Positions 2,168 through 3,232 of a stretch of DNA of 13,699 nucleotides are shown in pieces. This stretch comes from a virus. Its lineage: Duplodnaviria > Heunggongvirae > Uroviricota > Caudoviricetes. A program made the translations under genes and the position numbers. How positions within the stretch are numbered: the first letter of the stretch is position 1; each line of letters opens with the position of its first letter. Under the pieces are notes generated by a model that saw nothing but the letters and a program-made list of their open reading frames with translations, was not told the origin of the DNA and made no database searches. The stretch lies in IMG/VR virus record IMGVR_UViG_2537561934_000011. One strand, given 5' to 3'.

Positions 2168-3232
2168 TTAAGTTGTTTCCAGACTTCCTTTGGTAAAAGC
2201 TTGTATCAGTCTGTTTGCTGCTGCTTTCTGCGCTGCCACATTGGCAATAACCGATAGTTTTTCCTGGCTGGCTTTCGTGCAGATCCCCGCCCAGTTATCC
2301 ATCAGAAAAAAATCCTCTCTTTCTGCAGAGCTGGTAGTTGCACAGAGTTTTTCGATCATAGAAGTTATTTCTGCGATGGAATGATTAACCATCATCTGTT
2401 GAACCGCAAAACCGAAAGCGTTAATCATTACTCCATGGAACTGAATATAATCGCGCTTGTACGTAGCGTGGTGTACACCATGTCGGATTGAGTCAATCTG
2501 AGTTAGTGTAATCCATGCCTCCCAGACAGATTCTATATATCCCATTTCAAGTTGTTGATTGCCGTTCCTAGCAAACTTTGACGTTGCATCAGTGAGTGCC
2601 TTGAAACTCACCCACATATTACTTTTTAATGGCACTACGTTGTGTTCAAAATCGGTTATATCGGCAAATACAGTATGTTGGGTCAGGAAGGATATCATTC
2701 CCTGAGCAATATCATCCCGGCCGTTATACGCCATATTGATGGTCGCTGATGGCTTAGAAACGTTGTTATTTATGTCCGAAAAGAACTGCTGCCGGGTTTT
2801 TAGCGGCAGATTCATTGTAAGCATCATGGGAACCATGAGCGTTGATGGGGAACTTCGGCAAAATATCTCAATGCCAGCTGCACGATGTTGGCCATCAAAA
2901 AGTTTTATTTCGGCGTCGAGGGGAATTCTGGCTATACCAACATTTGTGTTGCCAAACGGTACAAATTCTATATTCGAATCACAGTTACCTACGAGAGGGG
3001 GAATGATAAAAGACTCATTTCTTGAGTCTGCGTTAGTGAGATAATTTAAAAATTTTCGTACTCGATTTGGATTAATTTCTCGCTGAGAGCGTTCCAGTGT
3101 ATGGCCGTAATTATCTGAAGCGAGGAAACGAGCCAGCGATCTTCCTGGTATGGTAAGGAAGAGTGTAACAGTACCACCCTGTACACCTTGCGATGCCGGA
3201 AATTCGAATGAATGATTACCAACCTGACTCAT
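2168..3232 (-). CDS. DGQHR-domain (DndB-like) protein, 354 aa
   Basis: Contains the motif FDGQHRAAGI (codons around 2873-2896) that names the DGQHR/DndB-like family. Strong SD AGGAGGA 5 nt upstream of the ATG at 3232. Confidence 0.7.
   Translation of the reverse strand: MSQVGNHSFEFPASQGVQGGTVTLFLTIPGRSLARFLASDNYGHTLERSQREINPNRVRKFLNYLTNADSRNESFIIPPLVGNCDSNIEFVPFGNTNVGIARIPLDAEIKLFDGQHRAAGIEIFCRSSPSTLMVPMMLTMNLPLKTRQQFFSDINNNVSKPSATINMAYNGRDDIAQGMISFLTQHTVFADITDFEHNVVPLKSNMWVSFKALTDATSKFARNGNQQLEMGYIESVWEAWITLTQIDSIRHGVHHATYKRDYIQFHGVMINAFGFAVQQMMVNHSIAEITSMIEKLCATTSSAEREDFFLMDNWAGICTKASQEKLSVIANVAAQKAAANRLIQAFTKGSLETT

What the first reader, a model, noticed from the sequence alone, without database searches (positions are those of the whole stretch)
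2168..3232. Solitary DGQHR (DndB-like) gene in the variable early-left slot of the prophage
The DGQHR motif marks a family best known from DndB of phosphorothioation clusters, but no dnd or other partner genes are present here. It occupies the accessory slot between xis and exo (the ea-region position in lambda) and has a strong ribosome-binding site. A phage-borne standalone copy could act in defence, anti-defence against modification-dependent systems, or superinfection exclusion. Its role is unknown.
Basis: partly seen in the sequence, partly recalled or inferred. Interest (0 to 1): 0.65.

Follow-up and report, generated by a model that had tools for sequence, protein, structure and literature searches.

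The report
Partnerless phage DGQHR (ParB-like) early gene
This is a real, intact gene for a ParB-like nucleotide-binding protein that phages and conjugative plasmids carry in their first-expressed regions, usually just upstream of a DNA methyltransferase; this E. coli copy lacks that partner and sits in a decayed prophage, and its function has not been tested.

Summary
Window 2168-3232 (-) is an intact 354-aa ORF with an invariant FDGQHR motif. It has an AGGAGG ribosome-binding site and a 4-nt ATGA overlap with the upstream DUF1317 gene. It lies between exo and xis/int of a lambdoid element.

It passes the DGQHR-domain models but fails the DndB and DpdB equivalog models. It is 23% identical to a genuine E. 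coli DndB. The model shows a ParB/sulfiredoxin-fold N-domain and a helical C-domain with no effector domain.

None of about 120 homologue loci lies in a dnd or dpd cluster. Outside the E. coli clade, 49 of 83 usable loci have a co-directional DNA methyltransferase within 1.2 kb downstream. Five unrelated methyltransferase families are involved, often with a 4-bp overlap. Only 1 of 83 has one upstream. About 1080 plasmids, mostly conjugative, carry a roughly 42%-identical homologue; the five contexts examined place it among ssb, psiA/psiB and anti-restriction genes.

My best reading is an NTP-dependent DNA-associated helper or regulator of DNA modification for incoming mobile DNA. This copy is partnerless, and the element is an about 11-kb remnant at icd (the e14 site) that has lost its early promoter region. 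The function is inferred, not shown.

The parts
2168..3232 (-). DGQHR-domain protein CDS, 354 aa (PHROG 7901)
   Evidence: ORF and translation. PF14072 3.1e-46, TIGR03187 189 bits, PHROG 7901 1e-214. Identical protein WP_001678641.1 is annotated 'DGQHR domain-containing protein'.
2678..3232 (-). N-terminal ParB/sulfiredoxin-fold domain (about aa 1-185), predicted to bind NTP
2882..2896 (-). Codons for D113-G-Q-H-R117, the DGQHR motif (equivalent to the ParB box II nucleotide-binding arginine motif)
   Evidence: Read. D113, G114, Q115 and R117 are invariant in alignments A1 and A2. The role of the motif in NTP binding comes from PMC10164549.
2171..2677 (-). C-terminal helical domain (about aa 186-354) with no recognisable effector
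3229..3242 (-). Translation start region: AGGAGG (3237-3242), ATG (3230-3232), and ATGA overlap with the DUF1317 stop (3229-3231)
   Evidence: Read directly from the sequence; ORF coordinates.
3229..3393 (-). DUF1317 gene, translationally coupled upstream neighbour
   Evidence: PF07026 4.4e-31. It precedes the DGQHR gene in all 30 usable E. coli-clade loci and in several other clades (cluster c4).
2076..2090 (-). Terminator-like hairpin with a T-run between the DGQHR stop and the TraR/DksA gene; the mosaic junction where relatives carry the methyltransferase module lies just upstream, at about 2148-2179
   Evidence: Hairpin. Homology to the 73% clade ends at 2179. Window 2017-2100 matches the leader upstream of TraR in phages that carry a methyltransferase between DGQHR and TraR.

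Best explanation
The gene encodes a two-domain DGQHR protein: an N-terminal ParB/sulfiredoxin-fold NTP-binding domain and a helical C-terminal domain with no nuclease or other effector. It belongs to a branch carried by mobile elements, distinct from DndB and DpdB. That branch is part of the early-left (pL) operon of temperate phages and, in the five plasmids examined, of regions that look like leading regions. I infer that it is an NTP-driven, DNA-associated helper or regulator of DNA modification of the incoming element. It would act with an orphan DNA methyltransferase normally encoded just downstream, in the way DpdB supports DpdA and DndB governs DndCDE, and so help the element escape restriction at entry. 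In the E. coli clade of this window the methyltransferase module is absent. The element here is also a decayed remnant at icd that has lost its early promoter region. This copy is therefore most likely a partnerless leftover, or at best acts without a dedicated partner. Shown: gene integrity, fold, family placement, gene neighbourhoods. Inferred: NTPase activity, DNA binding, cooperation with methyltransferases, an anti-restriction role.
Against: There is no experimental datum for any member of this branch. No DGQHR-methyltransferase fusion was found among the best 150 of 816 representative clusters. About 40% of non-E. coli loci, and the whole E. coli clade (0 of 30), lack an adjacent methyltransferase, yet the gene stays under purifying selection. 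So it must have, or also have, a methyltransferase-independent function. The partner methyltransferase family changes freely, which fits co-location of independent anti-restriction cargo as well as physical cooperation. The control set is closely related and detects only the methyltransferase families used as seeds. In this window the native early promoter is deleted, so expression is unknown.
Confidence: 0.4

Rival explanations
1. It is a stand-alone establishment or anti-defence protein that does not need a methyltransferase. Examples would be a nucleotide-dependent clamp that coats or marks incoming DNA and blocks translocating restriction enzymes or RecBCD, or a protein that binds or hydrolyses a nucleotide used by host immunity. 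Methyltransferases would simply share the same anti-restriction cargo slot.
For: The E. coli clade (0 of 30 loci with a methyltransferase) and many other loci keep an intact, purifying-selected gene without one. Plasmid homologues sit beside anti-restriction and SOS-inhibition genes rather than always beside methyltransferases. Five interchangeable methyltransferase families argue against a specific protein-protein partnership.
Against: The strict downstream, co-directional and often overlapping arrangement recurs across homologues only 30-40% identical. The two characterised DGQHR or DGQQR relatives that lack a nuclease, DndB and DpdB, both act with DNA-modification enzymes.
Confidence: 0.22
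2. It is a DndB-like transcriptional regulator: an NTP-modulated repressor or timer that controls the distal early-left genes (methyltransferase, TraR, xis, int) rather than touching the modification reaction.
For: DndB negatively regulates dndBCDE transcription (PMC4507180 and PMC8569181). The gene lies upstream of, and co-transcribed with, the genes it would control. Small HTH proteins often sit between it and the methyltransferase.
Against: No HTH domain is detected in the protein. It is only 23% identical to DndB. Plasmid homologues occur in varied operons with no common downstream target.
Confidence: 0.15
3. It is a prophage-encoded defence or superinfection-exclusion gene, retained by the host because it excludes other phages or plasmids. 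It might act as an Osa-like or SspE-like ParB-fold NTPase/DNase, possibly sensing modified DNA.
For: The gene remains intact in two independently decayed versions of the icd element and in 282 of 284 E. coli genomes that carry it. The ParB-fold proteins Osa, SspE and GmrS act in exclusion or defence (PMC5512222 and PMC10164549). The element also carries a McrBC-like system.
Against: There is no nuclease domain or conserved nuclease motif. The gene has no promoter-like site of its own and is coupled inside the repressed early operon. PADLOC recognises only the DndB model and no system. Retention next to int is expected from central deletions, and many carriers are clonal. The homologue in pOXA-48-type plasmids is IS1-disrupted without obvious cost.
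Confidence: 0.1
4. It is an accessory of the phage recombination or replication module, acting on DNA ends or ssDNA of the incoming genome alongside Exo/Bet or RecE/RecT.
For: In phages it always lies just downstream of exo/bet or exoVIII/recT modules. In plasmids it lies among ssb, psiB and RadC.
Against: Most lambdoid phages with the same exo lack it (61 of 65 exo-anchored loci), so it is not needed for Red recombination. There is no direct evidence for any recombination function.
Confidence: 0.08

Closest known systems
DndB (TIGR03233), regulator of the dndBCDE phosphorothioation operon
   Same: Same Pfam family (PF14072) and DGQHR motif. Similar size (354 against 361 aa) and the same two-domain plan. 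Alignable over 292 residues at E 5e-26.
   Different: Only 23% identical. It scores 108.6 bits against the 328-bit cutoff, whereas genuine DndB scores 462. It is never next to dndCDE in about 120 loci. It is encoded in phage early operons and plasmid leading-region-like stretches.
DpdB, the ATPase required for DpdA-catalysed 7-deazaguanine insertion into DNA
   Different: DpdB has DGQQR rather than DGQHR. The NF041060 model gives no hit. The partner in relatives of this gene is a methyltransferase, not a transglycosylase, and there is no dpd cluster.
ParB-fold-DNA methyltransferase fusion proteins of phages and plasmids
   Same: A ParB/Srx-fold nucleotide-binding module combined with N6/N4 or other methyltransferases, enriched in prophages (PMC5512222).
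   Different: Here the two functions are separate genes. No fusion was found in this branch. The ParB-fold module is of the DGQHR/DndB type with its own helical C-domain.
DUF262-type NTPases of SspE, GmrSD and BrxU (DGQQR motif)
   Different: Those carry a C-terminal DUF1524/His-Me nuclease with an EHxxP motif and are host defence enzymes. This protein has no such domain or conserved motif.
Orphan ParB-like proteins and anti-restriction cargo of plasmid leading regions; phage P1 DdrB
   Same: Encoded in the first-entering or first-expressed DNA of mobile elements, next to ssb, psi and ard genes and orphan methyltransferases.
   Different: A different ParB subfamily. The DGQHR family appears only as a 7-member family in the supplementary file of PMC11541004 and is not discussed in the main text.

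Membership tests
DGQHR domain family (TIGR03187 / Pfam PF14072 DndB) | Profile score above the curated cutoff | tested here: met
   TIGR03187 189.4 bits (cutoff 58.85); PF14072 158.4 bits (cutoff 29.1).
DGQHR domain family (TIGR03187 / Pfam PF14072 DndB) | Conserved D-G-Q-H-R motif | tested here: met
   F112-DGQHR-117. D113, G114, Q115 and R117 are invariant in A1 and A2.
DGQHR domain family (TIGR03187 / Pfam PF14072 DndB) | ParB/sulfiredoxin fold of the N-terminal domain | tested here: met
DndB proper (TIGR03233 equivalog) | Score at or above the 328-bit equivalog cutoff | tested here: not met
   108.6 bits. Genuine E. coli DndB scores 462.4 bits.
DndB proper (TIGR03233 equivalog) | Encoded with dndC, dndD and dndE | tested here: not met
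   No dnd genes in the window or in any homologue neighbourhood examined.
DndB proper (TIGR03233 equivalog) | Sequence-specific repression of its own operon, modulated by ATP | not testable with these tools
   Needs EMSA, ChIP or reporter assays.
DpdB (NF041060) | Equivalog profile match, DGQQR motif, and adjacency to dpdA | tested here: not met
   No NF041060 hit at E<=1. The motif is DGQHR. No TGT-like gene nearby.
SspE / GmrSD-type DUF262-DUF1524 enzymes | C-terminal His-Me (DUF1524) nuclease with a conserved EHxxP motif | tested here: not met
   No Pfam hit beyond DndB. In FEHNVVP the spacing differs and the His is not conserved in the wider family.
Canonical partition ParB | HTH DNA-binding domain, ParA partner and ParA-binding motif | tested here: not met
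   No HTH_ParB or ParBc Pfam hit. No parA in the window. PHROG ParB-like match only at E 0.0097.
ParB-methyltransferase fusion proteins | Methyltransferase domain in the same polypeptide | tested here: not met
   354 aa with a DndB domain only. The longest relatives (up to 661 aa) show no methyltransferase domain.
Known anti-phage defence system (PADLOC) | A complete set of system components | tested here: not met
   Only the DndB model matches. Neighbouring genes give no PADLOC hit.
NTPase activity of the ParB-fold domain | Binding or hydrolysis of ATP, CTP or GTP that depends on the motif arginine | not testable with these tools
   Residues are conserved. Activity needs DRaCALA or ATPase assays, as done in 10.1101/2025.10.10.680097.

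The most novel reading that the evidence does not exclude
DGQHR proteins of this mobile-element branch are a general NTP-driven cofactor that does not depend on the enzyme family. They would let orphan DNA methyltransferases of any family modify incoming phage or plasmid DNA fast enough to beat restriction. That would be a previously unrecognised anti-restriction component found in temperate phages and more than 1000 sequenced plasmids, including IncL/M resistance plasmids. Partnerless copies like this one would work with host Dam/Dcm or have a second, methyltransferase-independent activity.
Probability: 0.2. Interest if true: 0.75.

Novelty: new variant of a known kind. Interest (0 to 1): 0.5.

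Why it matters
DGQHR/DndB-type proteins are known only as companions of phosphorothioation (DndB) and 7-deazaguanine (DpdB) systems. This work indicates a third, larger setting: phage early operons and leading-region-like stretches of plasmids, typically just upstream of orphan methyltransferases. If the protein helps or times methylation of entering DNA, it would explain how orphan methyltransferases protect mobile DNA quickly. It would also add a component to the establishment toolkit of clinically important plasmids; the IncL/M family carries a homologue, which is IS1-disrupted in pOXA-48-type plasmids. That makes a clean experiment possible. The copy in this window is probably of little consequence by itself, because it has no partner, no native promoter, and sits in a decayed prophage.

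Tried and rejected
- Megablast of the gene against 50,697 phage records found nothing. Only tblastn found the 44 phage homologues.
- I looked for a methyltransferase remnant between the DGQHR stop and TraR and found none. The tblastn 'hit' was an out-of-frame overlap with the DGQHR 3' end.
- I considered the invariant FEHNVVP motif as an SspE/DUF1524-type EHxxP nuclease motif. I rejected it because the His is R, N or K in distant homologues and K in genuine DndB, and the spacing differs.
- I looked for DGQHR-methyltransferase fusions among 816 representative clusters and in long homologues and found none.
- My first neighbour survey took the longest ORF on either strand. It was misled by spurious antisense ORFs (clusters c53 and c47) that masked methyltransferase genes, so I redid it using all ORFs.
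- Literature searches for DGQHR, 'DndB-like', DndB with pOXA-48, and DndB with prophage or orphan methyltransferase found no study of this branch.
- I considered a functional link to the McrBC-like system in the same element. It is not supported: the same gene occurs in prophages with other integrases. I did not test this further.

Full report

Yes. Window 2168..3232 on the minus strand is a 354-codon ORF starting with ATG. The peptide contains F112-D-G-Q-H-R117, encoded at 2882-2896. An AGGAGG lies at 3237-3242, four bases before the ATG. The ATG overlaps the TGA stop of the preceding DUF1317 ORF (3229..3393) as ATGA, so the two genes look translationally coupled.

Profile searches are unambiguous:
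- Pfam DndB PF14072: 3.1e-46 over residues 11-286.
- TIGR03187 'DGQHR domain': 189.4 bits, cutoff 58.85.
- PADLOC DndB: 1.6e-37.
- PHROG 7901 (function unknown): 1.2e-214.

The gene is under purifying selection. Among 16 alleles of the E. coli clade there are 17 synonymous and 5 non-synonymous polymorphic sites. Against the 73%-identity clade, dN is 0.20 with saturated dS.

**2. Where is it?**

The window is E. coli chromosome. The same DNA occurs in many complete genomes. In strain EC2341 it lies between icd and iraM/ycgX, which is the e14 attachment site.

The gene order is: int (1-1143), xis, DUF4222, TraR/DksA (1796-2014), DGQHR, DUF1317, exo (3384-4064), a truncated bet, a truncated regulator, ydaT, a truncated replication gene, IS1, a pin-like pseudogene, a McrB-like AAA ATPase, McrC, and an icd' remnant.

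The pL/N/cI/cro region is deleted: bet' abuts a partial regulator near 4342. No sigma-70-like site precedes exo-DUF1317-DGQHR on the minus strand, so expression of this copy is uncertain.

The gene is present at 99% identity or more in 284 of 5426 complete E. coli genomes. It also occurs in longer lambdoid prophages with at least three different integrases. An independently decayed version of the icd element in O157:H16 keeps the same int-to-exo' block.

**3. What kind of protein is it?**

An AlphaFold2 model built on 29 homologues has mean pLDDT 78.5. It shows an alpha/beta N-domain (about residues 1-185) and a helical C-domain.

The C-domain matches nothing convincing, and Pfam finds no second domain. 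An alignment with homologues down to 17% identity leaves invariant only Q18, R51, Y64, F90, G99, D113, G114, Q115, R117, F151 and D153. All of these are in the N-domain.

The locally invariant FEHNVVP motif briefly suggested the EHxxP nuclease motif of SspE. The spacing differs, and the His is R, N or K in distant homologues and K in genuine DndB. I therefore reject a nuclease.

**4. Is it DndB?**

No. TIGR03233, the DndB equivalog model, gives 108.6 bits against a cutoff of 328. The genuine DndB from the experimentally active dndBCDE-dptFGH island of E. coli NADC 6564 (PMC6408774; locus L213) scores 462 bits and is 23% identical to this protein. The DpdB model does not match.

**5. What do the relatives show?**

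The family is widespread in Enterobacterales as proteins of about 355 aa at 51-73% identity (alignment A1). An exhaustive profile search finds only 816 representative clusters among 1.84 billion proteins.

Homologues at about 65% identity are in isolated, sequenced temperate phages (Salmonella SPN1S, SPN9TCW and SPC32H; several Klebsiella phages). Homologues at about 33% identity are in Vibrio phages.

In SPN1S the gene overlaps the next gene, an MT-A70 DNA methyltransferase, by 4 bp, with int following. In Vibrio phage Va_PF430-3_p42 it is followed by a C5 methyltransferase.

I fetched 123 loci from genomes and IMG/VR and labelled methyltransferases by homology to Pfam-verified seeds. The results are:
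- Outside the E. coli clade, 49 of 83 usable loci have a co-directional methyltransferase starting within 1.2 kb downstream.
- Only 1 of 83 has one within 1.2 kb upstream.
- The pattern holds in 15 of 38 DGQHR clusters at 90% identity and 5 of 10 at 50%.
- It involves five unrelated families: MT-A70 21, phage Dam PF05869 18, N6_N4 PF01555 5, C5 PF00145 5, D12 PF02086 4.
- The methyltransferase gene either overlaps the DGQHR stop or follows one small HTH or zinc-finger gene.

As a rough control I used 61 E. coli lambdoid loci anchored on a near-identical exo but lacking DGQHR. Only one has such a methyltransferase within 4 kb downstream. That set is closely related and is not a phylogenetically independent sample.

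The nearest clade to the window gene (73% identity) has MT-A70 directly downstream. The E. coli clade has none in 0 of 30 loci. Homology between the two clades stops 11 nt before the stop codon. The spacer that follows matches the TraR leader of phages that carry the methyltransferase between DGQHR and TraR. No methyltransferase remnant exists in the window. So the window lineage differs by a modular exchange that leaves DGQHR without a partner.

**6. Plasmids**

tblastn finds a homologue at about 42% identity in 1080 plasmid records, of which 885 are predicted conjugative.

In an IncL/M plasmid the 427-aa homologue lies in a co-directional block with a JAB/RadC protein, DUF4942, Hha, a KlcA-type anti-restriction protein and ssb. 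This block runs toward mobC/mobA/traI, which is the arrangement expected of a leading region (PMC11541004).

Four other plasmids place it beside ArdR and umuD, PsiA and HigB, a large ParB-like protein plus PsiB and Hok, or RadC plus DUF4942 and Hok. None lies in a dnd cluster, even where the protein is annotated 'DndB'. In pOXA-48-type plasmids the gene is interrupted by IS1B.

**7. Interpretation**

Established knowledge supplies four points:
- DndB is a negative regulator of dndBCDE.
- DpdB is a DNA-stimulated ATPase without which DpdA cannot insert preQ0 into DNA.
- ParB-fold domains fused to methyltransferases are enriched in prophages, and a DndB-like protein binds ATP and GTP.
- Orphan methyltransferases are prominent leading-region cargo that protects entering DNA.

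I combine these with the neighbourhood data and the early-operon coupling. The best-supported model is an NTP-dependent, DNA-associated helper or regulator of modification of the incoming element, normally paired with an orphan methyltransferase. My confidence in this is 0.4.

The model does not explain why partnerless copies stay intact. A methyltransferase-independent establishment or anti-defence role is therefore the main rival (0.22). The other rivals are a purely regulatory role (0.15), lysogen-expressed defence (0.10) and a recombination accessory (0.08). Lysogen-expressed defence is disfavoured by the absence of a promoter-like site, an effector domain and system partners. No member of the branch has been studied experimentally, as far as six literature searches could find.

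**8. Verdict**

The copy in this window is probably a partnerless leftover in a decayed prophage. The family-level pattern is a new variant of a known kind and is directly testable: DGQHR proteins as recurrent upstream neighbours of orphan methyltransferases in phages, and residents of leading-region-like stretches in plasmids.

Noticed in passing
window 7432-8880 and 9649-10191 (+), with 10188-11309 (+): A McrB-like AAA ATPase gene is split by an IS1 insertion; the adjacent McrC-like gene is intact. In relatives the ATPase is an intact 651-aa protein (L001 20236-22191). Its N-terminal part is not a classical McrB domain, and PADLOC gives only weak REase_II-type hits. This is a type IV-like restriction module at the far end of the e14-site element.
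   Followed up: partly
window 5665-6432 and 8881-9648: Two 768-nt IS1 copies, 91% identical, lie in inverted orientation. They bracket a pin-like recombinase pseudogene and the 5' part of the McrB-like gene, an arrangement that could invert or mobilise the 2.4-kb segment between them.
   Followed up: partly
window ~4061-4485: A truncated bet (C-terminal part only) abuts a truncated regulator gene on the other strand. The whole pL-N-cI-cro control region of the prophage is deleted, so the remaining early-left genes lack their native promoter.
   Followed up: partly
L133 (E. coli O157:H16 98-3133), whole locus: A second, independently decayed form of the same icd-site element has different internal deletions and tail-fibre remnants. 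It still keeps int-xis-DUF4222-TraR-DGQHR-DUF1317-exo' at one end and the McrBC-like pair at the other.
   Followed up: no
L087 7065-7529; L102 7046-7585 (and many other loci): Two families of small proteins sit between the DGQHR gene and the methyltransferase in many phages. One is 154 aa with cysteine pairs and an HTH-like segment. The other is 179 aa with repeated HTH segments and a weak GcrA-like Pfam hit (E 0.0036). They may be controller proteins of the methyltransferase module.
   Followed up: partly
plasmid hits H105-H121 (e.g. NZ_CP068864.1 30197-31929): In the ~63.6-kb pOXA-48-type IncL plasmids the DGQHR homologue is interrupted by IS1B. Other IncL/M plasmids (e.g. L128 8989-10272) keep it intact. 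This is a natural knockout in a globally successful resistance plasmid.
   Followed up: no
L035 3846-5201 and 5301-6326 (Rheinheimera pacifica): Two DGQHR-family paralogues lie in tandem. The second carries DGQTR instead of DGQHR.
   Followed up: no
L213 8108-9268 (E. coli NADC 6564 dnd island): Between dndE and dptH of a genuine dnd-dpt island lies a second, apparently split DGQHR-family gene, in addition to dndB itself.
   Followed up: no
L003 7070-7978; L120 7309-8076; L062 7805-8461: In several phages that lack a methyltransferase next to DGQHR, the downstream gene encodes a protein sharing a conserved EHAEWSQ.TFG..GP.GPLKHL segment. The Klebsiella phage copy is annotated DUF550 in its GenBank record. 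It may be an alternative cargo in the same slot.
   Followed up: no
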